IMG/VR virus record: IMGVR_UViG_3300045988_077016
Location: 1-61,256 of that record
From: a virus
Strand: one strand, 5' to 3'
DNA length: 61,256 bases
Made by a program: the position numbers and the translations under genes. How positions within the stretch are numbered: the stretch's first letter is position 1; each line of letters opens with the position of its first letter. Below the pieces are notes generated by a model that ran no database searches, was not told where the DNA came from, and saw only the letters and a program-made list of their open reading frames with translations. Positions 698 through 61,256 of the stretch are shown piece by piece.

Positions 698-714
698 AAA
701 TATCTAAAAAAGTA

Positions 715-743
715 TTGACAAATATCTAAAAAAGTGTTATCAT
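715..743 (+). promoter_or_regulatory. Early promoter, cassette copy B
   Basis: TTGACA 715-720, 17-nt spacer, TGtTATCAT ending at 743. The spacer reads ATATCTAAAAAA instead of ATATCCAAATA. An AAAGGAGG RBS precedes ATG 787. Confidence 0.7.
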
Positions 744-1919: not shown

Positions 1920-2342
1920 ATGGCAAGAGTTGACACATTATCAGAACAGACCAAAAAAGAGATATTAAAACTATATGTTGACGGTAACATAACAGTAAAA
2001 GAAATATGTCAATTATATAGTATAGGATGCAAAGCGTTAAATGATTTGTTGCTACAAACTAATACTCCACATCGTGCGTAGTACCGAGTTGGGCAAAAGC
2101 GTGCTACAGCTAAAGGCAAAAAGCATTGTAGACACTGTGGGAGCAGAATTAATCCTCCCGGCGCTGTTTTTTGCTGTCAGTGCGGCAAGCCACTTTTGAC
2201 AGATAAAGAAAGAGTAATACAGATGCTGGAGCATCTGACTAATCATTTCATTTGTTTAGAACAGTCTAAACGGGACAGCTACATAGCCGAAGTCAATGCT
2301 ATTATAAAGCTTGTAAAGGCTTTAAATATATCAGATGATTAA
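1920..2342 (+). CDS. HTH plus zinc-ribbon protein interrupted by one in-frame TAG (2079..2081). The minimal product is 1920..2081 (53 aa) and the readthrough product is 140 aa.
   Basis: GAGGAGG RBS 7 nt before ATG 1920. After the TAG the same frame stays open for 87 codons and encodes CRHCGSRINPPGAVFCCQCGKPL, a classic CxxC..CxxC zinc ribbon. No ATG, GTG or TTG occurs in frame between the TAG and the ribbon. Confidence 0.6.
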
Positions 2343-2402: not shown

Positions 2403-2864
2403 TCAATCTGGTATGTTATCTTCCCCAACAAACTGTACTAATTGAGCAGCATCAACATTCACGTTTGTTTGATTTAATCCATTCATTAGATTAAGCTCTT
2501 TTATAGGCTGCAGAATAGCATTTAAACGGGACATTGTGATAGGTTTATCATTATTATATAAATCATCCTCTGCACGCTCAATCACTCTCATAAGCTTTTC
2601 AGTTGCCACTTCTTTAGTCCAAACGGCTTTTTTTGTCTCATAGTCTCGCACATCCTCCATAAGGCCATCATAATAAGAGCGTATGTTTGACCTTTTTAAA
2701 TACATCTGTGCTTTACGTTTTAATAAGTCCTCATTATCTGATGTCATTTCAACACCAAAATTTTTAGAATAAGATTCAGCGGGAGTTAATCCATTGTTTA
2801 CTATATCCTTCACGAAGTATCGTTCAATATCCTTCAGCGGCCTCAATACTTTATTATCACTCAT
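2403..2864 (-). CDS. terS: Putative terminase small subunit (153 aa)
   Basis: N-terminal HTH-like FVKDIVNNGLTPAESYSKNFG and a helical C-terminal half, resembling Terminase_2-type TerS proteins. The call rests on pattern recognition only. The gene is not adjacent to terL. Confidence 0.45.
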   Translation of the reverse strand: MSDNKVLRPLKDIERYFVKDIVNNGLTPAESYSKNFGVEMTSDNEDLLKRKAQMYLKRSNIRSYYDGLMEDVRDYETKKAVWTKEVATEKLMRVIERAEDDLYNNDKPITMSRLNAILQPIKELNLMNGLNQTNVNVDAAQLVQFVGEDNIPD

Positions 2865-2907
2865 TTAATATTCACCTCCATAACAAAACTAATAAATAAT
2901 TAATTAA

Positions 2908-2980
2908 CTGGGCATGATAGATTTGAACTATCGTATGCAGGAGTCAAAGTCCTGTGCCTTTACCGCTTGGCTAATGCCCA
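2908..2980 (-). tRNA. tRNA-Gln (anticodon UUG)
   Basis: Minus-strand cloverleaf. Acceptor stem TGGGCAT/ATGCCCA; D arm GCCAAGCGGTAAAGGC; anticodon stem CAGGA/TCCTG with loop CTTTGAC. T arm GATAG-TTCAAAT-CTATC, discriminator G, no encoded CCA. The 5' half closely resembles bacterial tRNA-Gln. Confidence 0.9.
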
Positions 2981-3055
2981 ATAAAGGCGAGCAGCAACGC
3001 CCGCCCCAATATAAAGAAAGGAGTTTGTAAAAAATGGAATACATTTTACAATAAC

Positions 3056-3084: not shown

Positions 3085-3092
3085 CGATAATC

Positions 3093-3155
3093 AATTTTCA
3101 ATTTGCAAATTTTTGATTTTAAATCCGCAAATTTTCAATACGCAAATTTTTGATT
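3093..3155. repeat. Two 26-bp direct repeats (3093..3118 and 3130..3155), 37-bp period, upstream of the tRNA promoter
   Basis: AATTTTCAATTTGCAAATTTTTGATT versus AATTTTCAATACGCAAATTTTTGATT (2 mismatches). Confidence 0.8.
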
Positions 3156-3171
3156 TGATTTCCGAAAAATT

Positions 3172-15416: not shown

Positions 15417-16286
15417 TTACTCCTTTCTATATTTTTCACTTATAATTTTAGGTACTGCTTTATCCCAATCAATAACATGATGGAAACGCTTATTAGTGAC
15501 ACCCATTGTATACATCTTTACACATGATGGGCAAGCCATAATAGTATAAAATGTTTTTACATATGTGCCGGAATCTAAGTACCCATCTGACATACCACCT
15601 GATAAAGATTGGGTAGCTAACTGGTCAATAGATACATCGGCTACTGTGAAAAATAAATAACCTCGTGAGCCCAAATTAACATATGTTGTAACATCTTCAT
15701 TCATCTTACCCGACCACCTAAATGGTCTATCTGTTCTACAAAAGAAGGCATTCATAGCCTTTCTGGTTAATCTGTCTTTACATACTTTAGAGTTTTTACC
15801 GCCAATAAAATCGCCTATCTGAGATAATGCCACTGTATGTGCATTTGAAGTATCTAAAAACTCCAAAACAATGTCAACAAGTTCATCGAATTTACGAATA
15901 TACTCGGTGCCCAAATGTTCGCCTTGAACGACACGACTTCTAAAATTTGTATAGTCATCGTCAAGCTCTAAAAAATATTTATATCCTAATTTTTTTGCTA
16001 TATCAAAACAAGCACATCGGGCATATAAAATAGCTTTACGGTCATTATCTGGGCCCATAGCATCAACCTTTAATGCCTGCAATAACTTATTAAACATATA
16101 CACATTATCCTCACCGTACAGAGAATAGTATTTGTCTGCATCTGCGTCCTCATTGTCTATGACAAGGATAATTCGACCAGTATATCCAGCCTGTTTCAAA
16201 GCTTTATACGTATAAACATTATCTGCTCTACCGTGTGTCAATATAAACACCACAAAATCTGTCCAATGTAACATACTAATCACCAA
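15417..16286 (-). CDS. Glycosyltransferase-like (GT-A-like, DxD) protein
   Basis: N-terminal beta-alpha FVVFILTHGRADN, ILVIDNEDADA, acidic ELDDDY motif. Overall reminiscent of phage base-glycosyltransferase (TAGT-like) families. Recognition by eye only. Confidence 0.4.
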   Translation of the reverse strand: MVISMLHWTDFVVFILTHGRADNVYTYKALKQAGYTGRIILVIDNEDADADKYYSLYGEDNVYMFNKLLQALKVDAMGPDNDRKAILYARCACFDIAKKLGYKYFLELDDDYTNFRSRVVQGEHLGTEYIRKFDELVDIVLEFLDTSNAHTVALSQIGDFIGGKNSKVCKDRLTRKAMNAFFCRTDRPFRWSGKMNEDVTTYVNLGSRGYLFFTVADVSIDQLATQSLSGGMSDGYLDSGTYVKTFYTIMACPSCVKMYTMGVTNKRFHHVIDWDKAVPKIISEKYRKE

Positions 16287-16289
16287 CTC

Positions 16290-17249
16290 TCAAATAAACT
16301 GATAGTCAGTTAAATTAGACATACAATGATAAACGGCCTGATTTGGCCCGGTTAACCGACATGGTACGTCACACATACTCATATTAGTTACAAACTTGGA
16401 CTTCTTTTCAAGTATATCATCATCCATAATATGACCAACTATTTCATAAGGTTTATGGCAACAATACATAACATTGCCATACTCGTTAACAGCTATCTGT
16501 GACCAATTCGCTATACATTTATCAAAACGCTCACCTAACATTTGCCATTTATAATTAAGCACAACACGTTCATCAATCCTCTGAATAGATTCAATCGCCG
16601 CTATTATTGTTTTTGCACACTCCCGATTTTGTGGGTTCTTTAAATAATACTCACCGTCGGTAGATTCAACAGGACGTATTACAATATAATCAACATCTAA
16701 ATCAGCATTAGCGTTATAAAATTTATACACTTCATCAACTGTATTCGCCAACATTTGTATGCCCAATGACGTTTTAATATCATTCTCTTTCTTCCACTTG
16801 GCATACTCCTGAATATTATAGCGGGTATGCTGATAAAAACGTACACCACGTTTTGCCGCATAGCTATCTTCATCCCAAGCATCTAAAGACACTTTTAAAT
16901 AATTGGGTTTAATGTACTTAAGATTATTAAAATTTGTATTAATACCATAAGCAGTATTGGTACTCTCCAGATAACCTGCGATAGCATCAAATTCAGGATT
17001 AACTGTGGGTTCACCCCCACCAGTTAATATAATACCCAATACACCAAGCTCTTTAAGTCTGTTTACATAAACAACAAAATCCTCATATGATACACATTTT
17101 GTACGCTGGGGTAATTTCCAACGATTGTATGTACAGTAGCCGCACTTATTGTTACAAAAATTAGTTAAAAACATATCTGCGGTAATCGGTCGCCTATCGT
17201 AGAACATTCTGTCAATATACCCCATAATTTTTGAATTACTAATAGCCAA
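16290..17249 (-). CDS. Radical SAM enzyme
   Basis: CNNKCGYC (CxxxCxxC), GGGEPT SAM-binding motif, and extra C-terminal cysteines (MYCCHKP, MCDVPC). Confidence 0.85.
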   Translation of the reverse strand: MAISNSKIMGYIDRMFYDRRPITADMFLTNFCNNKCGYCTYNRWKLPQRTKCVSYEDFVVYVNRLKELGVLGIILTGGGEPTVNPEFDAIAGYLESTNTAYGINTNFNNLKYIKPNYLKVSLDAWDEDSYAAKRGVRFYQHTRYNIQEYAKWKKENDIKTSLGIQMLANTVDEVYKFYNANADLDVDYIVIRPVESTDGEYYLKNPQNRECAKTIIAAIESIQRIDERVVLNYKWQMLGERFDKCIANWSQIAVNEYGNVMYCCHKPYEIVGHIMDDDILEKKSKFVTNMSMCDVPCRLTGPNQAVYHCMSNLTDYQFI

Positions 17250-17651: not shown

Positions 17652-18563
17652 TTACACCTCCACAGGGTCACCATACCAACATTTTGTAATTTCACTGTCG
17701 CACTTCATTGGTACAGATATTTTATCTTTAGCCGAATCAATCATTATCATAGATAATCTATCTGCAACCTTTTTAGCATTTTCGATGGGACATTCCCCAA
17801 TCACCTCATCATGGACCTGTAAAAGTATCTGAAAACCCCATTCTTTTAATAACTTATCATCATGTACATGAATCATGGCTGTTTTTGACATATCGGCTGA
17901 TGTACCTTGAATAATACTATTAACACACTGTCTACTTGCATCTGTTATCTTAAGTGTATTATCTTTAATCTCAATACCCTGTGCAGCTAACAGTTCCCGT
18001 ATTTTTGATTTCCCCTTAGAGGAAAATGTTTTCTGCAACATTGACGTATATTTATCAACAATAGACTGTGGTACAGTTTCGTCAACAACAGCATCATTAA
18101 AACTCAATGGATTAAAGTTGGGAGAATTACCGTTTACATACTTAAATTCATACGGTTTAAGTAACATATTGGGTAAATGTCTTACCCTACCCCATGCAGT
18201 TGTAACATAACCATGCTCACTTGCAAATTGTTCCGTTGATTTAATAAAATCTTCAACATGAGGGAAAGCATCAAAAAATTTACGTGTCAATTTCTTTGCT
18301 TCATCTACCGATACACCTAATTGCTCTGCTACCGATTTATCACCCCTTGAATACATCAACCCCAAAACAATCGATTTACAAAAACTTCTACGTTCTTTAC
18401 CTTCGGGATTAACCGTACCGTCAGGTCTAAACTCCCTACATTCATCATAGGGCACATCATATACTAATGATGCTACCCAAGAATAAATGTCTTTACCTTC
18501 CGCATAAGCACCAATCAAATTTTCATCACCGCTAATGTGCGCCAATGTTCGTGGTTCTTGCTG
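17652..18563 (-). CDS. polA: DNA polymerase I family, exon 2 (palm/fingers C-terminal part)
   Basis: Begins QQEPRTLAHISGDENL (the continuation of Pol A motif A). Contains RRSFCKSIVLGLMYS (motif B-like) and QVHDE (motif C). Confidence 0.85.
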   Translation of the reverse strand, partial: QQEPRTLAHISGDENLIGAYAEGKDIYSWVASLVYDVPYDECREFRPDGTVNPEGKERRSFCKSIVLGLMYSRGDKSVAEQLGVSVDEAKKLTRKFFDAFPHVEDFIKSTEQFASEHGYVTTAWGRVRHLPNMLLKPYEFKYVNGNSPNFNPLSFNDAVVDETVPQSIVDKYTSMLQKTFSSKGKSKIRELLAAQGIEIKDNTLKITDASRQCVNSIIQGTSADMSKTAMIHVHDDKLLKEWGFQILLQVHDEVIGECPIENAKKVADRLSMIMIDSAKDKISVPMKCDSEITKCWYGDPVEV

Positions 18564-19540
18564 CTAACTGTTATTGTAGTTCGCTACACTACACCCCACT
18601 TTTCAATGGGTGTCGGGCTATATCTTCGTGTATCACGTTTCGACACGCTTGTGCCTACTCTACTTGCTGTCTTACCGTTAATATCGAATAAGAAAGGTTT
18701 TCGATAGCCTCCACACACGATTATTCTTTATACCATTTAGGAAACTCATATATATTATGCTTATATGTGTATTTACCGTATTTAATACTCTGTTTTATCT
18801 TACGCTGATAAACACACTCAGCTAAAGTATCGAATGGGTTTTCAACCGTTTTCCACCAATTATAGCCATCCCTATATGAGTGAAAATGTCGTTCATTACC
18901 AAATTCGTCTACACAAAAACAACCAATCGAACGAGTATCGCCGCTACCGAAATTATGATTACCTTTAGCCTTCTCTGATAGCTTGCGGCGGTGTTCATCT
19001 GAAAATGGGTGTATCTTACGATACTCTCGCATAGACTTCGATATTTTATTACGAACAATCTCTGACCGCATAATATCATCATGCTTCTGTTTGGGCTTCT
19101 CCTCAAACATGATATTATTATCGCCGCCGTAGCTCATATTATAACCGCTACGAACTGAATCATACTTAACAATATAATAAGTTTCTAAATAGTTTAAATC
19201 ATCTAAACTATCGGCTGTATCAATCTGTTCAAACTTAAAATTTTCCACGCCATACTTACGCATAGCATTATACAAATGTCTTGAATTACCATATTTTGCA
19301 CATTTTAAATGCTGCTGTTTACGATGCTCTAATGTGTTTATAGTTTGACCAATATACACCTTACCATTTATTTGATTTATTATCTTATAAATTATCATAA
19401 CATCACCCCAAATAAAGTATAACACAATAATTGAGTTTTGTCTATAAGATAACTTATTAGAATAATCTTGCTCGGTATTACCATATCTAATGACTTAAGT
19501 TTCACCGACTTAGTGACATTTTACTTCTCCCAGTATGTTA
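18564..19540 (-). mobile_element. Group I intron (977 nt) interrupting polA inside motif A
   Basis: Exon 1 ends ...ACTTCTCT. Intron nt 11-18 (GGAGAAGT) pair with it, giving the U-G wobble at the 5' splice site (P1). The intron ends in G (..AGTTAG|CAGCAA). Splicing restores ADFS-QQEPRTLAHISGD. Confidence 0.8.
18721..19398 (-). CDS. GIY-YIG homing endonuclease (intron-encoded)
   Basis: IYKIIN..GKVYIGQT...R...H plus YNMSYGG. ATG 19398 follows a GGGGTGA RBS; the ORF is open to 19425. Confidence 0.8.
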   Translation of the reverse strand: MIIYKIINQINGKVYIGQTINTLEHRKQQHLKCAKYGNSRHLYNAMRKYGVENFKFEQIDTADSLDDLNYLETYYIVKYDSVRSGYNMSYGGDNNIMFEEKPKQKHDDIMRSEIVRNKISKSMREYRKIHPFSDEHRRKLSEKAKGNHNFGSGDTRSIGCFCVDEFGNERHFHSYRDGYNWWKTVENPFDTLAECVYQRKIKQSIKYGKYTYKHNIYEFPKWYKE

Positions 19541-20893
19541 AGAGAAGTCAGCACCAACAAGAACATAACCATCTTTAGCACAGAACATCTTTCGTATTTC
19601 CTTATTATGGGAAGGTATGTTCTGTAAATTCGGGTCCGAGCTTGAAAATCTGCCTGTTCTTGCCCCGTACTGATTAAAAGAACCGTGTAATCTACCTGTA
19701 TTAGGGTTTACCATTTCTGGTAGTTTGTCTATATAAGTCGAAAGTAATTTTACCGTACCTCGATAATCTAATATAGCTTTACTTAACGGATGATTTAATG
19801 CTGTCAATATTTCTTCACCTGTGCCCCTTGGACTTTTCTTATCGGGTGAAGTTAATCCTAAAACATCATATAACAATATAGCTATCTGAGCTGGACTACC
19901 AACATTTATCGGGTCCGACAGTTTATTATCGGGATTAGCTTTCTTGTATGCCTCAATCTGTTTACTGTAGTTATTAATAATACTGTGTACTGTCGCCACC
20001 TGTTCATCGAGTATCTTGTGATACTTTTCAGACAGTTTCTTAGCGTATTCAATATCAAGAGTTATACCGGTATCTTCCATATCTACAACAACATCAATCA
20101 GCGGCATTTCGATATTCATAAATACACTATATTGTCCGGGTAATTTACGTCTATTTAATACTGTCTGCTGATACTCATATAATTCAAACGTCTTTATAGC
20201 ATCACCAGCAGCATATAAATAAGCTACATTAACGGGTACAAGTGTAAAAGAAAGCCCATCAAACAACTTCTCATAAGTATACGCTTCATCGTCTGTTGAA
20301 TTACAATATTTCAAATGCAGCGTTTTCAATGCCGCCGATTCATTTTCATCAATGCACCGGCTTGCCAACATCGTGTCCCAATAAGCATACAGCTTAATAC
20401 CTATATGGTTTCTGATAACACGTATATCAAATTTTGCATTGTGCATTACCCATTTAATGTCCTTTAAATTATTAAAACAGTTATATAGAAATTCTTTTGT
20501 GGGCTGATTGGCCACCCTACTGCCCGTTATATAACTGATATGACCATAAGGTATGTATACAGCTTTTTCACCAGGCGTATACAAACATATACCAGCTAAA
20601 TCGTCTAACATAGGATTTAAACCGCTTGTTTCGGTATCTAATGCAGCTGTACCATTAGACTGTATAAGATTAAAGTAATCTTCTATCTCTGCCTCTGTAC
20701 GTAATACCTTATACTTATCTTTATACTTACCTAATTTAGTATTTACATAAGCACTAAGGGTATTTATTGTATCAAGTACATTCTTACCGCCCTTAACAGT
20801 TGCACCAACTGTTATAAGATTTTTAGATTTATTAATTATATCTGTATCACGTTTCTTATTATCAACTACCGGCACTTTCTTTATTAAACCCAT
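19541..20893 (-). CDS. polA: DNA polymerase I family, exon 1 (3'-5' exonuclease domain and N-terminal polymerase domain)
   Basis: Exo I motif ALDTETSGL. Ends VGADFS, then the first intron codon is TAA. Confidence 0.85.
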
Positions 20894-21612: not shown

Positions 21613-22197
21613 TTAACTATTCTTTCTGTAAAAGATACCGTCCGAAATTATTGAACGCATAATCGGTGACTGTGACGTACTTTGGAAAACAAATCTTGCA
21701 CGTAATACTTTATTCCACTCAGCAGGATAAAGTTTATCCATTCGTCTACGATTATCAGCGGTTAAAGAATCAGGGTGAGCTAAAACAACTAATTTACGTC
21801 TGTTAATTCTCACATAAAAGACTGCTTTACCCTTATACAACACTTTGGCATCAACTGATTTAGTATACTGGATAACAAGGTTTTTATCGTTATAAGACCT
21901 AACAATACTTGAAAAAATATCCATTAATTCTTTACCTGTTGATTCGCCCCTATCTCGATGTGTGGTATCTTCAATTTCAGTTTCTTTTACAATAGCATCA
22001 ACTTCTTTTTCCGCTTCTTTGATTTCTTCCTCAGGTCTATCCTCTACCCACCAACGCTCAAAGTTAGAATGAGTTACACACTTAACGCCGACACTATCAA
22101 CATCAATGTATATCATTTCATCATCGATTTTAACGACTGTACCAGTGAGCAAAGTTCTTCGATTTAAGACCTTCATGTTCTTTTTTGGCATTGCCAT
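21613..22197 (-). CDS. Hypothetical protein (194 aa)
   Basis: ORF with an AGGAGAGGA RBS, downstream of promoter 22235..22263. Confidence 0.6.
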   Translation of the reverse strand: MAMPKKNMKVLNRRTLLTGTVVKIDDEMIYIDVDSVGVKCVTHSNFERWWVEDRPEEEIKEAEKEVDAIVKETEIEDTTHRDRGESTGKELMDIFSSIVRSYNDKNLVIQYTKSVDAKVLYKGKAVFYVRINRRKLVVLAHPDSLTADNRRRMDKLYPAEWNKVLRARFVFQSTSQSPIMRSIISDGIFYRKNS

Positions 22198-22234
22198 ATA
22201 GTCCTCTCCTTTCTATCTAAATTTTACAATTCAT

Positions 22235-22263
22235 ATATTACACGACTATATCCAAAAAGTCAA
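22235..22263 (-). promoter_or_regulatory. Sigma-70-type promoter
   Basis: Minus strand: TTGACT, 17 nt, TAATAT. Shares TTGACTTTTTG with the promoter at 27287..27314. Confidence 0.6.
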
Positions 22264-25672: not shown

Positions 25673-26686
25673 TTAAAACCATTCGACCTCTCCTCGGGCA
25701 ATTCGCTCATTCCTTGCTCTGATTTCTTCCTCAGTTGGGCCAGATTTTAACTTATCACTTTCCCAACTGGGTCGACCGGCTTTACTAAAGCCTTTAGTAC
25801 GTGTGTAATTTTCGATTGAGTAAATCAGAGTTGTATGGCCGCAAGCTATCGCACGATTGATAATCTCGATACGGTCTTTGTCGTTTTTTACGTTGTCAGA
25901 CAAGGCAGTTAATTGACCACGTACGCCCTCCGGCGTACAGTGGGCTTTCGCCGTTACTAAAACATTCCCAAACTTCTCCAGAGCTGATGTGACTGTTTCG
26001 GAGAAACCAAATTCGTCAGAAATCCTAAAGAACATATCTCCGTAGTCGTTTTTTGCTTTTTTGGATTTTTTAGTTGTGAGTGTTTTCGGGGCCGCATTTT
26101 TTGCGGTTCCGTTAGTGCTATGAGAAATACTTTTAGTATTTCGAATAGTGCTAATTGATATATCTGTATTATTTGTTTTTGTATTATTATATATAGTATT
26201 ATTTGGCTCCGTTTTCGTAAACCCTTGGGTTGTCGAATTCGTTAAGTCAAGGGGCTCCGTTTTCGTAAACCCTTGATGTTCAATATTTTCACATCTTGGA
26301 GAAACCCCGGAATCGTCAGCTTTTTTAACTGAATCTGTCGTTGTTTTAGGTTCTGTTATCTCCAATACTTCAGCAAGTTTATTCTCGTCAATTTTATAAT
26401 GAATTACAGCAGGTAATCCGATTAATTTTGTGGACAAAATACCCATCTTTATTAGTGTGTTAATAACTTTTCGCTGCTCATACATGGTTACACCTAAATT
26501 ATCCCGTAAATCTTCTCTGGTGTAATAAAAATATTCACCATCGACTAATTTATCGTTATGTTCTAAATAAGCATATTTAGCGTACATTTCGCCGATTATA
26601 GCGGCACTTGTTAATCCTAATTTTTTGCAGAGAGTTTTATTAACGATGAAATACCCCCTTGAACTTAAAACATTTGCCAAACTCAT
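25673..26686 (-). CDS. Replication initiator / replisome organiser (DnaD-like)
   Basis: N-terminal winged-helix-like region, a Thr/Asn-rich linker with the duplicated peptide QGFTKTEP, and a DnaD-like C-terminal region. Lies immediately upstream of the loader and helicase genes. Confidence 0.6.
   Translation of the reverse strand: MSLANVLSSRGYFIVNKTLCKKLGLTSAAIIGEMYAKYAYLEHNDKLVDGEYFYYTREDLRDNLGVTMYEQRKVINTLIKMGILSTKLIGLPAVIHYKIDENKLAEVLEITEPKTTTDSVKKADDSGVSPRCENIEHQGFTKTEPLDLTNSTTQGFTKTEPNNTIYNNTKTNNTDISISTIRNTKSISHSTNGTAKNAAPKTLTTKKSKKAKNDYGDMFFRISDEFGFSETVTSALEKFGNVLVTAKAHCTPEGVRGQLTALSDNVKNDKDRIEIINRAIACGHTTLIYSIENYTRTKGFSKAGRPSWESDKLKSGPTEEEIRARNERIARGEVEWF
26205..26275. repeat. Two perfect 23-bp direct repeats (26205..26227 and 26253..26275) inside the initiator gene, candidate origin iterons
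   Basis: GGCTCCGTTTTCGTAAACCCTTG occurs twice with a 48-bp period. Confidence 0.8.
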
Positions 26687-26783: not shown

Positions 26784-27053
26784 TTATACGATACTTATAC
26801 TTTTCTTGACTCCATAAGGTCTGATTATTATATAACCGAGTTTTTCTAATTTCTCAGCACAATCTTTAATATGACCAGCATTACAGCCACAGATTTTAGA
26901 TACATCAATCCATCGTACCATATAATTACCTGTTACAGAGCTTTTACAGAGCGTATATAACACACCGTAAAGTAATTTATCTAAGTGACTTAAGTTCTTG
27001 TCCTGGGACACTTTAACGGGTATTACAATCTCTTCGAGTTTCTGAATGTGCAT
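26784..27053 (-). CDS. Winged-helix/HTH DNA-binding protein (89 aa)
   Basis: LSHLDKLLYGVLYTL...WIDVSKICGCNAGHIKDCAEKLEKLGYI resembles a wHTH fold. Confidence 0.5.
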   Translation of the reverse strand: MHIQKLEEIVIPVKVSQDKNLSHLDKLLYGVLYTLCKSSVTGNYMVRWIDVSKICGCNAGHIKDCAEKLEKLGYIIIRPYGVKKSISIV

Positions 27054-28170: not shown

Positions 28171-28467
28171 TTATTTATCAATGTTTTTAACAAGTTCGTC
28201 TACTTGATTTCGGTTAATTAACTCAAGCAGCAGTAATGAATATCCTATAATATCTACAACTGTGTCTGATATACTTTCATTGGTTATTGTAGGATTTTGT
28301 TTGTTTAGTGTTAGATTTTCTAACCTATTGAGTTTATCGGTAATTCTTATAAAGTAGGCATACCAACCGTACTCATTAAATGTACGCTCAAATGCGGCGT
28401 CATAGTCGGTGTTTTTACGCTCAACAAGATTACTGATTGCATTACCAATTGTTTGTATGTTGCCCAT
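28171..28467 (-). CDS. DUF1599-like / MazG-superfamily all-alpha protein
   Basis: KNTDYDAAFERTFNEYGWYAYFIRITDKLNRLENL matches the K..DY...f....G....ir..DK..Rl..L pattern. Confidence 0.45.
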   Translation of the reverse strand: MGNIQTIGNAISNLVERKNTDYDAAFERTFNEYGWYAYFIRITDKLNRLENLTLNKQNPTITNESISDTVVDIIGYSLLLLELINRNQVDELVKNIDK

Positions 28468-34958: not shown

Positions 34959-35282
34959 TTAATTCGTTTTTAATATGTCTAAATATTGCTGTAATTCGGG
35001 CGATAATAAAACGCCTTGTGTATCTAACAAATACTTAAGCTGTTTTCGAGCTTTAGTGATTAAATTGTCAATGGATTCTTTTGTTAAATTCATTTCTTCC
35101 GCAATTTCAACATGAGATTTTTCTTCGACATAAAACAACCACAATACCTTTTCGTACCTATATTTTAGACCAATAGAAGAAATGATTAGTTTTAAATACA
35201 CTTTAGACATACGTTTTAATAGATTATTAAATTCGCTTTGTGTTGTATCAGCCACATCGTAATCCTCCTTAAAATTGTACAA
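34959..35282 (-). CDS. Sigma-70 region-4-like HTH protein (107 aa)
   Basis: KVLWLFYVEEKSHVEIAEEMNLTKESIDNLITKARKQL matches the region 4.2 pattern. No region 2 is present. Confidence 0.6.
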   Translation of the reverse strand: MYNFKEDYDVADTTQSEFNNLLKRMSKVYLKLIISSIGLKYRYEKVLWLFYVEEKSHVEIAEEMNLTKESIDNLITKARKQLKYLLDTQGVLLSPELQQYLDILKTN

Positions 35283-57749: not shown

Positions 57750-59012
57750 TTAAAAACTGAAATTATTACCACCGAGATTTTCTGTTGCATAACGTAACGG
57801 GTCAATCAAGTGGTTATAATCGTCAATAGGCTCATTAATAATCTTACCATCAGTATTTTTGTCCCATACATAGTTGTTTAATTCTATAATCATATTCTCA
57901 CATCGAGGGTGTACAATGATTTCATAGTCTTGTAGTTTTAATATACCAGCTCTTACTGAATCGTTACCCTTTTTAGCAGGTCTTATTCTTGTTAAACCCA
58001 AAGCTTTTACCTCTGCAATAGATTTAGGTTCAGCACTATCTGCCTTGATTAACTCTTTATCCCAATGTAGCAGTTTTAAATCACGTACAAGCTGTGCATT
58101 GGTTACACCTGTTTTATAATATTCTCTCGGTATATAAATACGTTTTTCTTTCTCACTGGCCAAACAGAATATAACACCTGTCGGCGCTGTAAAGCCCCAG
58201 TCTAAGCCAAACAGTTTTTGATAAATGGCCATACCATATCTATCTTCCCTGTTCATAACTTCCACTTCGTCAAAGTTTTCGATATGCCAATTTGTAAAGA
58301 TAAGACCCTCTGCAATACCCCAATTACCTAAACCCTCAATACTATAACGTCTTGGTTGAGTTTCTTTCATCTTATTAAAAACACGCCTGTCATCATCACC
58401 GAGAAACTCATTACATAAATAAGTTGTAGTATCAGTGAATATATCTTCATCAGCGGGAGCATCAAAGAATCTTTTCTTTATCCAAATATTCTCACTCCAA
58501 GGGTTAAATGTCAAAGTAATCTGTTTAAAATATCCGGGTGGTAATTCACCTCTTATGGACATATCCAATTTATTAAATTCTGATTCATCTGTTATCTGAA
58601 AGGCCTCCTCCACCCAACACCAGCAGAGATAACCTCTTTCAGTTGTAATTGATGTAATAGATTGTGGGTCATCAAAACCTCTAAACAGTATCTTTTGACC
58701 AGTTGGTATATAAGTCATTTCCAAAGGATTCATAGTAGTTTTCCATAAATGCTTAACACCTAACTGATTTATAGCCCATTTTAATTGGGCGAAAGTAGAA
58801 TCTCGATGGGTATTAAAGAATTTTCTAACTACTAAAGTATTAGATAAAGGCATTTTCATCATATTGAAAATAATCCATAAAGCTGTTGTACAGCTTTTTT
58901 TACTACCACGCCCACCTTTAACTACTCTGTATCTACCTTTAAATCGCCAAAATTTACCGTAACCACCACCTATGACCTGAGATAGATTAATCACGGTTGG
59001 ATTGTTTGCCAT
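57750..59012 (-). CDS. terL: Terminase large subunit (PBSX/XtmB-like)
   Basis: Walker A KGGRGSKKS, Walker B-like CWCWVEEA, and a C-terminal nuclease region with conserved Asp residues; 420 aa. Confidence 0.85.
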   Translation of the reverse strand: MANNPTVINLSQVIGGGYGKFWRFKGRYRVVKGGRGSKKSCTTALWIIFNMMKMPLSNTLVVRKFFNTHRDSTFAQLKWAINQLGVKHLWKTTMNPLEMTYIPTGQKILFRGFDDPQSITSITTERGYLCWCWVEEAFQITDESEFNKLDMSIRGELPPGYFKQITLTFNPWSENIWIKKRFFDAPADEDIFTDTTTYLCNEFLGDDDRRVFNKMKETQPRRYSIEGLGNWGIAEGLIFTNWHIENFDEVEVMNREDRYGMAIYQKLFGLDWGFTAPTGVIFCLASEKEKRIYIPREYYKTGVTNAQLVRDLKLLHWDKELIKADSAEPKSIAEVKALGLTRIRPAKKGNDSVRAGILKLQDYEIIVHPRCENMIIELNNYVWDKNTDGKIINEPIDDYNHLIDPLRYATENLGGNNFSF

Positions 59013-59202
59013 ACATATTCTCCTCCTGCTGTGACCTAACTATATTAAAGTGTTCTCGCCACTTAAAGTAATCACCTAAAGAATAAATACACTCTTTGAA
59101 GTATTGTTCATTATCACAAAATGCACAAGCTGTACTTTTCGGTCGGTCAAAACAAATTAATCTACTAAGACAGTAATTACATTGATGCGAATAATCCTTC
59201 AT
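58987..59202 (-). CDS. Small Cys-rich protein upstream of terL
   Basis: ATG 59202 behind an AGAGGTGA RBS. The ORF-track TTG start at 59241 lies inside the 18-bp palindrome. Motifs CNYC...CAFC. Confidence 0.5.
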   Translation of the reverse strand: MKDYSHQCNYCLSRLICFDRPKSTACAFCDNEQYFKECIYSLGDYFKWREHFNIVRSQQEENMYGKQSNRD

Positions 59203-60113
59203 AATTAAGTCACCTCTTTTTAATTTTTTAGATATATCCAAATTTGGATATTATTCATTTGTATATGCTAAATATGTATACTATATTAATATAATCCAGC
59301 CTCGGCGGGCTGAATGAAGTATATATTATATATAACATAATAATAAAGAAAAAACAAGTAATTAATGCCCATATCCCCTATATCCAAAAATCTATCCAAT
59401 TATTTATCCAATACTCTATCTAAATTTGGATACCCATTTACCCCAAGAAAAAAATATCCAAATATCCTAATTTAGATATTCTTCTCCTAATTGCTATATA
59501 TCTAAAAAAGTATCTAAATTTGGATAGAATATTTTTGAGCCGAAAAAATTTTTTGGATAGAGTTTTTCCTGTCCTATACCCCCCACATGACTATCCGGAC
59601 AACAGCATCACGCAATCGGGGTCATACCCCCCCCGTTCATGTATATGCTGATGGGCGACAGAGCTGAATAATATATCTAAAAAACATGATAGAATAGATA
59701 CTTATAATAGACTTAATATAGAATCATCTGAGGAGTTCCTACATTATATATAGTAGTTAATACATATTAATATATCTATGATTCTGCTGCATCTGATGTC
59801 TATGTAAGCCACCGCCTATATGTGATATGTCTATACGCAGCTGATGCATGTGTAATAATAGGATATATCCAAATATCCTAATTTGGATATTGAATAACTA
59901 TGATAATATAGCTATATGATATTTAGATATACTATTTATATTAATATACATATACTAATATATCCATTCTGTACCGCCGGGCAGAGGCAGTATATATAAC
60001 AGCAAAGCATATATATATCCAAATAAGTATCTAAATTTGGATAGATTAATAAATATCTATATTTGGATATTATTCAATGTTTCACGTGAAACATATGTGT
60101 GAAACGCTTAATC

Positions 60114-60180
60114 ATAGCTAAAAAGCATGATATACGGCGAACGATAGCTAAAAAGCATGATATACGGCGAACGATAGCTA
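60114..60180. repeat. Tandem direct repeat, 2.2 copies of a 30-bp unit
   Basis: ATAGCTAAAAAGCATGATATACGGCGAACG at 60114..60143 and 60144..60173, plus a partial ATAGCTA. Confidence 0.9.
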
Positions 60181-60445
60181 TATTTGATAATGGGTGGAAA
60201 CGGTATTATCTGGCATGAACTGGTCTATTAGGCATGACTGCTTATTATTACTACTACTATAACTAATACTATTATTAATAACTACTCATTTAATCCCCGC
60301 CGCCCGGGAGCAGAATAGATATATGTACATATACATGGGAGCTGCTGGAAGTATTGATTTTATCAGCTTTTTTGAGGTTTATATCCAAATTTGGATATAT
60401 CCAAATTTCATTACAAAAATATCTAAAAAAGTATCTAAAAAAGTA

Positions 60446-60474
60446 TTGACAAATATCCAAATAAGTGTTATCAT
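60446..60474 (+). promoter_or_regulatory. Early promoter, cassette copy C
   Basis: TTGACA, 17 nt containing ATATCCAAATA, then TGtTATCAT. Precedes the AAGGAGG RBS of 60567. Confidence 0.7.
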
Positions 60475-60566
60475 AAAACCATAGAAAAAAGATATTTAAA
60501 AAATATCTAAAATATTGAATATCCAAATTTATATCCAAAAAACACTAAAATAAGGAGGAGATTAAT

Positions 60567-61161: not shown

Positions 61162-61203
61162 TTTACTCCCCGATGTTATACAAAAAATTATTTTATAAAA
61201 ATA

Positions 61204-61256
61204 TCTAAAAAAGTATTGACAAATATCCAAATAAGTGTTATCATAAAACCATAGAA
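61204..61256. repeat. 53-nt terminal overlap identical to nt 1..53, a sign of circular closure or assembly overlap
   Basis: Base-by-base comparison of both window ends. The overlap lies within promoter cassette copy A (TTGACA 61216..61221, -10 at 61239..61244). Confidence 0.9.

What the first reader, a model, noticed from the sequence alone, without database searches (positions are those of the whole stretch)
59234..60540. 1.3-kb non-coding region saturated with TATCCAAAT/ATTTGGATA sites that also occupy the early-promoter spacers and abut the late operon
By manual count, about 20 copies of the 8-9-bp site occur here as perfect 18-bp palindromes (59234, 60381), imperfect palindromes and direct arrays (59381-59412). 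The same site sits between the -35 and -10 of early promoter copies A and C. One perfect palindrome lies directly in front of the RBS of the first late/packaging gene (59202). This is the pattern expected for a dimeric phage regulator acting as an early-to-late switch or autoregulatory sink. The half-site also differs by only one base from the DnaA box (TTATCCACA versus TTATCCAAA/T), so recruitment of host DnaA as an alternative origin is a second hypothesis. A centromere-like or pac-recognition role is a third.
Basis: partly seen in the sequence, partly recalled or inferred. Interest (0 to 1): 0.65.

Follow-up and report, generated by a model that had tools for sequence, protein, structure and literature searches.

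The report
Phage early/late control region, operator arrays
The 1.36-kb gap between the early and late genes of this human-gut phage holds about 33 conserved copies of a short DNA word. They also sit inside every early promoter, so they are most likely the landing sites of one phage-made regulator that times gene expression, and that protein is not yet identified.

Summary
The intergenic region 59203-60566 holds 29 exact TATC[C/T]AAA sites (33 by weight matrix, 0.8 expected). The other ~57 kb is at chance level, apart from the three early-promoter copies and one further promoter at 22.2 kb, each with a site in its 17-bp spacer. Across eight strains with identical TerL, site cores vary three times less than the rest of the region (p = 1.3e-6). 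Sister lineages (TerL 74-85 % identical) keep the same layout but use their own word: TA-TCC-AAAT here, TA-GGT-AAAT, TA-TGT-AAAT, TA-TGG-GAAT or TAGGTACAA elsewhere. In each lineage the word lies next to the first early gene and just before the ribosome-binding site of the first late gene.

Best reading: operator arrays for a phage-encoded, lineage-specific DNA-binding protein that switches the divergent early and late operons. DnaA recruitment is effectively refuted, because no site in the region is within one mismatch of TTATCCACA. An origin is better placed inside the O-like initiator gene, and no partition ATPase was found among the larger genes scanned. A packaging (pac/TerS) role stays a live rival. 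The binder is unresolved; the leading candidate is the 71-aa Cys-rich first late protein. I rate it a new variant of a known kind, of moderate interest.

The parts
59203..60566 (.). Intergenic control region between the divergent late (-) and early (+) operons. It holds ~33 TATC[C/T]AAA half-sites.
59227..59251 (.). Three-site block TTTAGATA|TATCCAAATTTGGATA|T, including a perfect 18-bp palindrome. It lies just upstream of the RBS (59211-59216) of the first late gene and is an inverted copy of 60381-60405.
   Evidence: (I1, 96 % complementary)
59381..59432 (.). Array 1: four direct half-sites at 12-bp period, ending in the 16-bp inverted unit 59417-59432.
59455..59478 (.). Array 2: TATCCAAA + TATCCTAATTTAGATA, a 27-bp module duplicated at 59865-59891.
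   Evidence: (D5)
59499..59526 (.). Array 3: TATCTAAAAAAG + TATCTAAATTTGGATA, a 37-bp module duplicated at 60012-60048. An isolated site lies at 59552-59559.
   Evidence: (D1)
59859..59889 (.). Array 4: back-to-back site plus TATCCAAATATCCTAATTTGGATA.
60016..60069 (.). Array 5: TATCCAAATAAG + TATCTAAATTTGGATA, plus the imperfect palindrome TATCTATATTTGGATA.
60381..60405 (.). Array 6: perfect 18-bp palindrome plus an abutting third site, upstream of early promoter C.
60420..60474 (+). Early promoter C. Two TATCTAAAAAAG sites lie upstream, then -35 TTGACA (60446-60451), site 60454-60461 in the 17-bp spacer, and TG-extended -10 TATCAT (60469-60474).
60504..60539 (+). Three direct half-sites in the 5' leader of the first early operon, upstream of the RBS at ~60553.
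61202..61244 (+). Early promoter A, with an upstream site, TTGACA, spacer site 61224-61231 and TATCAT. The same bases reappear at 1-53 because the window ends overlap by 53 bp (circular assembly).
701..743 (+). Early promoter B, with an upstream site at 701-708, TTGACA 715-720, spacer site TATCTAAA 723-730 and TATCAT 738-743.
22214..22263 (-). A fourth promoter that is not a copy of the early one. It has TTGACT (22263-22258), TATCCAAA (22249-22256) in the 17-bp spacer and TAATAT (22240-22235). A second site (22214-22221) lies before the RBS of gene 21613..22197. The region is identical in 10 strains.
58987..59202 (-). First late gene, a 71-aa Cys-rich protein that overlaps the terL start by 26 nt. 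It is the leading but unproven candidate binder.
57750..59012 (-). Terminase large subunit (Terminase_3 and Terminase_3C domains).
2403..2864 (-). TerS-like protein (weak PHROG 1595 match, TerS-type N-terminal HTH motif). It is the rival candidate binder.
59743..59770 (-). Promoter-like TTAATA-16-TATAAT reading toward the late genes. It is conserved in L094 and L026 and may be the late or leader promoter.
60080..60180 (.). Other repeats in the same region: palindrome GTTTCACGTGAAAC (60080-60093) and a perfect 30-bp tandem repeat x2.2 (60114-60180). Their function is unknown.

Best explanation
The region is the transcriptional control region of a ~61.2-kb contractile-tailed phage from human gut samples. 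The phage has its own replisome, and no integrase was seen among the genes scanned.

**What binds (inferred).** The ~33 half-sites (A)TATC(C/T)AAA(T/A) are operators for one phage-encoded, sequence-specific DNA-binding protein. It would bind as a dimer on the eight 16-bp inverted units TATCYAAATTTRGATA. It would bind cooperatively or in higher order on the 12-bp direct arrays.

**What binding would do (inferred from position).**
- One site fills the 17-bp spacer of every early sigma-A-type promoter and another lies just upstream of the -35. More sites lie in the early 5' leader. Binding should therefore shut the strong early promoters by occlusion.
- Sites between the putative late promoter and the RBS of the first late gene should gate the late operon.
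- The clustered arrays between the two operons would raise local occupancy, or allow looping between the inverted terminal blocks 59227-59251 and 60381-60405.

**Status of the steps.** Shown here: site enrichment, site placement, conservation within the species, and change of the word between sister lineages. Inferred: that a protein binds, the sign of regulation, and the binder's identity. My working guess for the binder is the 71-aa Cys-rich first late protein, at a sub-probability of about 0.3.
For: 1. **Enrichment.** There are 29 exact and 33 matrix sites in 1.36 kb, against chance level in the coding DNA.
2. **Promoter placement.** A site lies in the 17-bp spacer of all three early promoter copies and of a non-paralogous promoter at 22.2 kb. 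Every early-promoter copy captured in the nine strain loci scanned (L226-L233, L225; one to three copies per locus) keeps a spacer site, varying only at C/T and flank positions.
3. **Purifying selection.** In the window plus eight strains with identical TerL, 17 of 232 site-core columns vary against 238 of 1199 other intergenic columns (odds ratio 0.32, p = 1.3e-6). Eight of the 17 are at the degenerate C/T position.
4. **Homologous layout with changed specificity.** L026 is colinear with the window, with TATCCAAA replaced by TTAGGTAAA at the same positions, including the palindrome before the RBS. L234, L236, L238, L240, L242 and L245 each have their own TA-NNN-AAAT-type word. It is concentrated upstream of the first late gene and, in L236, L238 and L240, also lies right before the first early gene.
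5. **Not DnaA.** No canonical DnaA box lies in the region.
6. **A better origin candidate exists elsewhere**.
7. **Binder guess.** The Cys-rich gene co-occurs with TA-NNN-AAAT arrays in six lineages and is always immediately downstream of the lineage's palindrome. It is absent from L243, L244, L009 and the L013 group, which lack such arrays.
Against: - No binding protein is identified. None of the candidates has a recognised DNA-binding domain above threshold.
- The single-sequence AlphaFold model of the Cys-rich protein is unreliable (pLDDT 57).
- Covariation for the Cys-rich protein is ambiguous. L245 and L238 share TTAGGTAAA but differ strongly in the variable patch around W48.
- The lineages that carry both the gene and the arrays form one TerL clade, so their co-occurrence is not independent evidence.
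- In L234 and L238 most sites lie within ~300 bp of the late operon, which also fits a packaging site.
- In relatives at 57-60 % primase identity (TerL ~66 %), the promoter equivalent to the 22.2-kb one lacks their array motif.
- One pairwise comparison (window against L094) showed no difference between core and non-core substitution rates.
- There are no expression or binding data.
Confidence: 0.55

Rival explanations
1. Packaging recognition region (pac). The arrays would be the binding sites of the small terminase, either the TerS-like protein 2403..2864 or the Cys-rich protein acting as a specificity subunit. They would wrap around an oligomeric ring next to terL. Headful packaging would start here and run into the late genes, so the early anti-defence module would be packaged last and injected first.
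For: - The arrays abut the terL operon in every lineage, and in L234, L238 and L245 they are largely confined to the 300-700 bp upstream of it.
- The 12-bp direct arrays suit wrapping around a multimer.
- TerL belongs to the Terminase_3/PBSX group, whose annotated relatives include staphylococcal phages; that these are headful packagers is my own knowledge.
- The TerS-like HTH differs between the window and the L238/L234 lineages, whose words differ.
- The Cys-rich gene occupies the classical terS position, overlapping terL.
Against: - This reading does not explain sites in the spacers of early promoters 0.8-1.5 kb away, conserved in all strains, or in the promoter at 22.2 kb.
- It does not explain the sites right before the first early gene in L236, L238 and L240.
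- In well-studied pac phages the site lies in or beside terS (own knowledge). Here terS is 4.2 kb away and has its own separate upstream repeat motif.
- TerS HTH helices are almost identical in L238 and L234 although their dominant words differ.
Confidence: 0.2
2. Replication origin with iterons. The sites would be bound by the phage initiator, either the O-like protein 25673..26686 or the winged-helix protein 26784..27053, and the AT-rich stretches between the arrays would unwind.
For: - The region is non-coding, 30 % GC, and dense in direct and inverted repeats, which is the classical look of origins in phages of Gram-positive hosts.
- The phage encodes an O-like initiator, a DnaC-like loader, a DnaB helicase and a primase.
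Against: - A more typical origin candidate lies inside the O-like gene at 26112-26275. It has a 20-nt inverted repeat, a 25 % GC tract and two perfect 23-bp direct repeats.
- Relatives with non-homologous initiators have their own repeats at that same map position. This is as expected if initiator and origin travel together.
- Placement of sites in promoter spacers and before RBSs is not an origin property.
Confidence: 0.1
3. Binding sites for a host transcription factor that the phage uses to sense host state, as Spo0A boxes do in phi29 and Nf. In this reading, the different words in sister lineages would reflect different hosts.
For: - No phage-encoded binder could be named.
- There is precedent for host-factor boxes around phage early promoters (PMC2731898, abstract seen).
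Against: - Six closely related lineages (TerL 74-85 %) each have a different but related word on a conserved scaffold. This is the pattern of a co-diverging phage protein.
- Several of those lineages come from human-gut sample series (sample names).
- I know of no firmicute regulator with this consensus (own knowledge).
Confidence: 0.08
4. Recruitment of host DnaA through degenerate DnaA boxes, as an alternative origin or a DnaA sink.
For: TATCCAAA resembles the core of TTATCCACA. More distant relatives (L012, L014, L111) do carry TTATCCA(N) clusters.
Against: - All 23 matches to TTATCCACA with at most 1 mismatch lie outside 59203-60566, against 24.3 expected genome-wide.
- The base before TATC is A in 30 of 40 sites and T in 1 of 40.
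- One third of the sites are TATCTAAA.
- Sister lineages have TAGGTAAA, TATGTAAA or TAGGTACAA at the same positions.
- The one TTATCC site (59405) is lost in strain L094.
Confidence: 0.02
5. Centromere (parS/parC-like) of a phage-plasmid, bound by a ParB/ParR-type adaptor.
For: Arrays of short direct and inverted repeats that overlap a promoter resemble parC of plasmid R1 or the omega sites of pSM19035 (own knowledge).
Against: - No ParA/ParM-type ATPase, no ParB and no plasmid Rep turned up among about 60 genes scanned. These include all the larger genes of the early and middle (replication) regions; most structural genes of the late operon were not scanned.
- The genome looks like that of a virulent phage with a full replisome and a DNA-modification module.
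Confidence: 0.02

Closest known systems
Cluster A mycobacteriophage (L5, Bxb1, Trixie) immunity repressor with operators and 'stoperators' (PMC6550527, PMC9283540)
   Same: - One phage protein acts on many copies of a short site.
- Some sites lie inside the early promoter and others in transcribed DNA.
- Related phages carry similar but not identical consensus words that track divergence of the phage.
   Different: - There the sites are 13-bp and asymmetric, spread over the whole genome, oriented with transcription, and bound by a known HTH repressor of temperate phages.
- Here the sites are 8-9-bp half-sites, mostly in inverted 16-bp units.
- 33 of them are packed into one 1.36-kb intergenic region.
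- No integrase or repressor gene was seen, and the binder is unknown.
phi29 p4/p6 early-to-late switch at the divergent A2c/A2b and A3 promoters (PMC3100819, PMC10899789)
   Same: - A virulent phage of a Gram-positive host.
- Divergent early and late promoters share one intergenic region.
- Phage proteins bind multiple sites, repress the early promoters and turn on the late one (abstracts).
   Different: - phi29 does this in ~220 bp with four p4 sites plus non-specific p6 multimers.
- Here there is 1.36 kb with ~33 specific sites, and the sign of late regulation is unknown.
- No p4 or p6 homologue was detected.
Omega repressor of pSM19035 and ParR-parC of plasmid R1 (own knowledge, not checked in the library)
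   Same: Contiguous arrays of short repeats in direct and inverted orientation overlap promoters and are bound cooperatively by small dimers.
   Different: - Those are 7-bp or 11-bp units bound by ribbon-helix-helix proteins, and they double as centromeres with a partner ATPase.
- No such ATPase is seen here.
- An RHH-like ORF occurs only in the more distant L013/L098 group. That assignment is my own reading of the sequence and has no Pfam support.
SPP1 pac region (pacL/pacR bound by TerS G1P) and lambda cosB R sites (own knowledge)
   Same: Repeated short sites lie next to the terminase genes at the start of the late operon.
   Different: - Those regions have few sites (3-6), lie in or beside terS, and are not known to sit in the spacers of distant early promoters.
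- Here terS is 4.2 kb away.
Lambda-type origin iterons inside the O gene (own knowledge)
   Same: Lineage-specific inverted-repeat sites are bound by a dimeric phage protein.
   Different: This phage has a separate O-like gene with its own internal repeat and AT-rich structure at ~26.1-26.3 kb.
Aca-repressed anti-CRISPR operons (own knowledge)
   Same: Strong early promoters drive small accessory or anti-defence genes and carry inverted repeats. An HTH gene sits at the end of the early operon (1920..2342).
   Different: - That HTH gene is truncated here and in other strains.
- No gene of its size sits at the equivalent position of the sister lineages that keep the arrays.

Membership tests
DnaA-box cluster (DnaA-dependent origin or DnaA sink) | Several 9-mers matching TTATCCACA with at most one mismatch | tested here: not met
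   Of the 23 such matches, none lies in 59203-60566, and the genome total equals the shuffle expectation of 24.3.
DnaA-box cluster (DnaA-dependent origin or DnaA sink) | T at box positions 1-2 and C at position 8 | tested here: not met
   The base before TATC is A in 30 of 40 sites. Position 8 is A in 37 of 40 sites and never C (the other 3 have T).
Phage multi-operator regulatory region (repressor/operator, stoperator-like) | Sites overlap core promoter elements | tested here: met
   A site lies in the 17-bp spacer of three early promoter copies and of the promoter at 22.2 kb.
Phage multi-operator regulatory region (repressor/operator, stoperator-like) | Sites conserved relative to neighbouring non-coding DNA | tested here: met
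   17 of 232 core columns vary against 238 of 1199 others, p = 1.3e-6, in the window plus eight strains.
Phage multi-operator regulatory region (repressor/operator, stoperator-like) | Site consensus diverges between related phages while positions are kept | tested here: met
   Shown for the window against L026 and for L234, L236, L238, L240 and L245.
Phage multi-operator regulatory region (repressor/operator, stoperator-like) | An identified cognate DNA-binding protein whose recognition residues covary with the site | tested here: inconclusive
   The Cys-rich protein has a variable patch, but L245 and L238 conflict. The TerS HTH is also compatible. No recognised DNA-binding fold was found.
Phage multi-operator regulatory region (repressor/operator, stoperator-like) | Binding and a regulatory effect demonstrated | not testable with these tools
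   This needs EMSA or ChIP and reporters.
pac/cos recognition region bound by the small terminase | Adjacent to the terminase genes | tested here: met
   The arrays end 30 bp from the late operon that starts with the Cys-rich gene and terL. The TerS-like gene is 4.2 kb away.
pac/cos recognition region bound by the small terminase | Virion DNA ends or a packaging series start in the region | not testable with these tools
Contig ends of the strains fall at repeated promoters or at arbitrary places.
Lambda-type iteron origin | Iterons plus an AT-rich tract inside or next to the initiator gene | tested here: not met
   The region is 33 kb from the O-like gene. That gene carries its own repeat and AT-rich structure, as do relatives at the same map position.
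Plasmid or phage centromere (parS/parC) | A partner ParA/ParM ATPase and a ParB/ParR adaptor gene | tested here: not met
   None was found among the roughly 60 genes scanned, which cover the early and middle regions and part of the late operon. Many small ORFs remain unannotated.
Aca-type autorepressed anti-defence operon | A conserved HTH repressor gene in the operon it controls | tested here: not met
   The HTH gene 1920..2342 carries a TAG nonsense codon here and frameshifts in other strains. No gene of its size sits at that position in L234, L238 or L240.

The most novel reading that the evidence does not exclude
The ~70-aa Cys-rich protein is encoded as the first late gene and overlaps terL. 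In this reading it founds an unrecognised family of DNA-binding proteins that read TA-NNN-AAAT words. It would act both as the shut-off repressor of the early (anti-defence) promoters and as the specificity factor that marks the genome for the terminase. The 33-site array would work as a copy-number-dependent sink that couples the early-to-late switch to genome replication. The easily re-tuned central triplet would give each lineage a private regulatory and packaging identity.
Probability: 0.12. Interest if true: 0.7.

Novelty: new variant of a known kind. Interest (0 to 1): 0.45.

Why it matters
The phage is common in human gut metagenomes: more than 20 near-complete genomes carry an identical TerL. 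Its early genes look like an exchangeable anti-defence or host-takeover cassette, and sister lineages carry ArdA in that module. The arrays give a concrete, testable handle on how such uncultured phages time early shut-off and late gene expression.

The series of sister lineages is a natural experiment in how a DNA-binding specificity drifts. They share the scaffold and differ mainly in the central three bases of the word. If the binder turns out to be the small Cys-rich protein, that would add a new DNA-binding family. If it is TerS, it would link packaging recognition to promoter control.

Tried and rejected
1. **Nucleotide search of the region against 50,697 phage records.** No match.
2. 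**Rfam at gathering and at E <= 1, and folding of the putative leader.** Nothing was found, so a non-coding RNA gene is not supported.
3. **Scan of IMG/VR for the 16-bp palindrome.** It gave 54 single chance hits and no relative.
4. **Literature search for the site sequence.** Nothing relevant.
5. **Early proteins as binder.** They have no Pfam or PHROG hits. They are not conserved between strains or lineages.
7. **gp194 (21613..22197) as an autoregulated binder.** Its promoter in relatives at 57-60 % primase identity lacks their array word. It has no structural or family match.
8. **Structure prediction of the Cys-rich protein.** The single-sequence model has pLDDT 57 and is unusable for fold search.
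9. **Profile searches of the Cys-rich and TerS-like alignments against PDB sequences.** Only insignificant hits.
10. **Search for more Cys-rich homologues.** Only its own cluster, the L026 contig and no genome hit were found.
11. **RHH assignment of the small ORF before terL in the L013/L098 group.** No Pfam support.
12. **Single pairwise test of site conservation against L094.** No signal. The multi-strain test replaced it.
Full report
**Genome context.** The window is a complete, circularly assembled phage genome. Its last 53 bases repeat its first 53 (strings printed). GC content is about 34 %.

Nearly all genes are on the minus strand. The late operon runs from 59202 down to about 35315 and contains these genes:
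- a 71-aa Cys-rich ORF;
- TerL at 57750..59012 (Terminase_3);
- portal, capsid, sheath and tape-measure genes (strain annotations);
- an amidase endolysin.

A 107-aa sigma-region-4-like protein follows. Then comes a long replication and nucleotide block:
- an SNF2 helicase;
- an O-like initiator, a DnaC-like loader, a DnaB helicase and a primase;
- a family A polymerase split by a GIY-YIG gene;
- a radical-SAM enzyme and a TET-associated glycosyltransferase;
- clamp, clamp loader and RecA.

The block ends with tRNA-Gln and a TerS-like gene at 2403..2864.

The plus strand carries only the small early genes from 60567 to 2342. They form three units, each driven by a copy of one near-consensus promoter, TTGACA-17-TG-TATCAT. 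The finding is the 1364-bp gap between these divergent early and late operons. The samples that hold the phage are human gut metagenomes.

- TATCCAAAT occurs 18 times against 1.67 expected.
- The looser TATC[CT]AAA occurs 29 times in the region and 21 times in the other 60 kb.
- A weight-matrix scan gives 33 hits in the region against 0.83 in shuffles.
- Outside the region the sites are explained by promoter copies A and B, by a 73-bp intergenic promoter at 22.2 kb, and by chance. Twelve remain where about 12.5 are expected from composition.
- The sites form eight 16-bp head-to-head units, five 12-bp direct steps and a few 8-bp, 22-bp and back-to-back arrangements.
- The two outermost blocks, 59227-59251 and 60381-60405, are inverted copies of each other. 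Each abuts the start of one operon.
- The region has no credible ORF, no Rfam family and no unusual RNA fold in the stretch tested.

**Where the sites sit.** In each early promoter one site fills the 17-bp spacer, and one or two TATCTAAAAAAG units lie just upstream of the -35. In copy C three more sites lie between the transcription start and the RBS.

A promoter that is not a copy of these lies at 22263-22235 on the minus strand (TTGACT-17-TAATAT). It also has TATCCAAA in its spacer, plus a second site before the RBS of gene 21613..22197. This stretch is identical in ten strains.

On the late side, a perfect palindrome plus a third site lie between a weak promoter-like sequence and the RBS of the Cys-rich gene.

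**Conservation within the species.** Looking up the exact TerL protein returned more than 20 contigs of about 61-62 kb. I aligned the intergenic regions of eight of them with the window.
- They are 86-99.8 % identical to the window, and each keeps 27-31 sites.
- Site-core columns vary in 17 of 232 cases against 238 of 1199 elsewhere in the same region (p = 1.3e-6). Eight of the 17 core changes are C/T toggles at the degenerate position.
- Every early-promoter copy captured in the nine strain loci scanned keeps a spacer site.
- Early gene content differs between strains. The sites are therefore more stable than the genes they precede.

**Comparison across lineages.** This was the most informative step. 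The nearest IMG/VR relative is L026 (TerL 83 %). It is colinear with the window upstream of the Cys-rich gene, but TATCCAAA is replaced by TTAGGTAAA at the same places. This includes TTAGGTAAATTTACCTAA directly before the RBS.

Lineages recovered through TerL clusters show the same design with their own words:

| Lineage (TerL identity) | Word |
|---|---|
| Window | TA-TCC-AAAT |
| L238, L242 (84 %), L026 (83 %) | TTAGGTAAA |
| L245 (84 %) | TTAGGTAAA / TACCTAAA |
| L236 (85 %) | TTATGTAAA (19 of 20 copies in the region) |
| L234 (85 %) | TTATGGGAA paired with TTATGTAAA |
| L240 (74 %) | TAGGTACAA |

The words share TA-NNN-AAA(T), and the window's TATCTAAA differs from TATGTAAA by one base. 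In L236 and L238 a site sits between the -10 and the RBS of the first early gene. In L240 three direct sites precede the first early gene.

Relatives with TerL about 66 % identical have 2-2.4-kb intergenic regions with other palindromes and arrays. The architecture is therefore a family trait, and the word is a lineage trait. This is the signature of a phage-encoded DNA-binding specificity that drifts with its sites. It is the same logic as stoperator motifs and repressors in Cluster A mycobacteriophages (PMC6550527).

**Alternatives.**
- *DnaA.* No 9-mer within one mismatch of TTATCCACA lies in the region, and the genome total is at chance level. The base 5' of TATC is A, not T. Sister lineages use unrelated words.
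- *Origin.* The O-like initiator gene carries a 20-nt inverted repeat, a 25 % GC tract and two perfect 23-bp direct repeats at 26112-26275. Relatives with non-homologous initiators have their own repeats at that map position. The origin is better placed there.
- *Centromere.* No partition ATPase or adaptor was found among the genes scanned, which include the larger genes of the early and middle regions.
- *Host factor.* This cannot be excluded, but it fits poorly with six related words on one scaffold.
- *Packaging.* This remains a serious rival. The arrays abut terL, and in L234, L238 and L245 they are concentrated close to it. Their direct periodicity would suit a TerS ring. The reading does not explain the conserved spacer sites in distant early promoters, the 22.2-kb promoter or the early-proximal sites of sister lineages. 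In addition, terS lies 4.2 kb away behind its own different repeat motif.

**Who binds?** This is unresolved.
- *Early proteins.* They are not conserved.
- *The HTH/zinc-ribbon ORF 1920..2342.* It has a GAG-to-TAG nonsense change here and frameshifts at A5 and T6 runs in two other strains. No gene of its size sits at that position in the sister lineages.
- *The Cys-rich protein.* It is present in every lineage that has TA-NNN-AAAT arrays, and it always lies directly behind the lineage's palindrome. It is invariant around W48 within the species and variable there between lineages. It is absent from L243, L244, L009 and the L013 group, which lack such arrays. Against it, L245 and L238 share a word but not the patch, the lineages form one clade, and no DNA-binding fold could be recognised.
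- *The TerS-like HTH.* It differs between the window and L238/L234, and it is nearly identical between L238 and L234. The word sets of those two lineages overlap but are not the same. It therefore stays possible.
- *Sigma-like, MerR/Xis-like and winged-helix proteins elsewhere in the genome.* These could not be compared across lineages with the look-ups available.

**Verdict.** Its main interpretation, a phage regulator acting on early promoters and the late operon, is the best-supported reading, with confidence about 0.55. The DnaA idea is refuted, the centromere idea is unsupported, and the pac idea is the main rival at about 0.2.

In kind this is a multi-operator phage control region, which is well known. 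Four features are unusual:
- the density, with about a fifth of 1.36 kb being sites;
- the family-wide conservation of a large repeat-filled intergenic region;
- the clean series of retuned words;
- the lack of any recognisable DNA-binding protein to go with them.

Noticed in passing
1920-2342 (+): The last early ORF (HTH plus zinc ribbon) has an in-frame TAG at 2079-2081. Sibling strains have GAG there and a continuous 140-aa protein. Two other strains carry frameshifts at A5 or T6 runs, so the C-terminal half is repeatedly broken while the 53-aa HTH part stays intact.
   Followed up: yes
26112-26275, inside gene 25673..26686 (-): An origin-like structure lies inside the O-like initiator gene. 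It has a 20-nt inverted repeat, a 25 % GC tract and two perfect 23-bp direct repeats (GGCTCCGTTTTCGTAAACCCTTG). Relatives with different initiators have their own repeats at the same map position (L174 1876-2292, L183 2389-2465).
   Followed up: partly
2403-2864 (-), 2907-2981 (-), 3090-3160: The TerS-like gene is separated from terL by the whole early module and the intergenic region. It follows tRNA-Gln(UUG). Its promoter (TTTACA-17-TATACT) is preceded by 3-4 copies of a different repeat, TCAAAAATTTGCR.
   Followed up: partly
59297-59312, 59969-59984, 60294-60309: Three short GC-rich hairpins with related sequence (GCCCG..CGG) lie between the site arrays. Each sits next to an AT-rich TTAATATA-like stretch. 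They are not typical terminators. The first is kept in strain L094 but absent from L026.
   Followed up: no
60080-60180: Palindrome GTTTCACGTGAAAC, with a third TGAAAC 8 nt on, followed by a perfect 30-bp tandem repeat x2.2 (ATAGCTAAAAAGCATGATATACGGCGAACG). GCATGA recurs at 60213 and 60233. This may be a second binding motif.
   Followed up: no
59743-59770 (-): Promoter-like TTAATA-16-TATAAT reading toward the late genes. It is 88 % conserved over 33 nt in L026 and nearly identical in L094, about 540 nt upstream of the first late gene. The leader it would make crosses arrays 1-3.
   Followed up: partly
17652-20893 (-): The family A DNA polymerase is split into two ORFs by a GIY-YIG homing-endonuclease-like gene (18721..19425).
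   Followed up: no
15417-17249 (-), 28171-28467 (-): A TET-associated glycosyltransferase, a radical-SAM enzyme and a DUF1599 'nucleotide modification associated' domain are present. The phage DNA is probably hypermodified, which could affect how proteins read the sites.
   Followed up: no
60567-2342 (+); L226-L233, L234, L238: Early gene content differs between strains that share an identical TerL. Sister lineages carry ArdA, DUF932, DUF2786/DUF7168 and LPD11 in the early module, so it looks like an exchangeable anti-defence or takeover cassette.
   Followed up: partly
L006 3567-3780; L009 3900-5900; L013 4260-5300; L098 7560-9300: Relatives with TerL about 66 % identical have 2-2.4-kb intergenic regions with several repeat families. 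These include 16 tandem copies of a 13-14-bp unit containing AAAATGTTTCC, ACGAGATATCGTACC, CCACAAGATATTGTGG and CCGAGTCG. A family-wide ATATAGTA motif occurs up to 19 times.
   Followed up: partly
L013 5826-6011; L098 9826-10020: In the L013/L098 group the small ORF just before terL (MSNRNLRRIHTTVS...) reads like a ribbon-helix-helix protein. It sits where the window has the Cys-rich ORF, but it has no Pfam support.
   Followed up: partly
L012 5130-5180; L014 4600-4910; L111 9000-9260: A more distant group (TerL 55-58 %) has clusters of TTATCCA(A/G/C)N upstream of terS that do resemble DnaA boxes. The similarity to the window's word is probably coincidental.
   Followed up: partly
34959-35282 (-): A 107-aa protein with only a sigma-70 region 4 domain lies between the lysis genes and the middle genes. 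It may be a late-transcription factor. Its target could be the family-wide TATAGTA motif.
   Followed up: no
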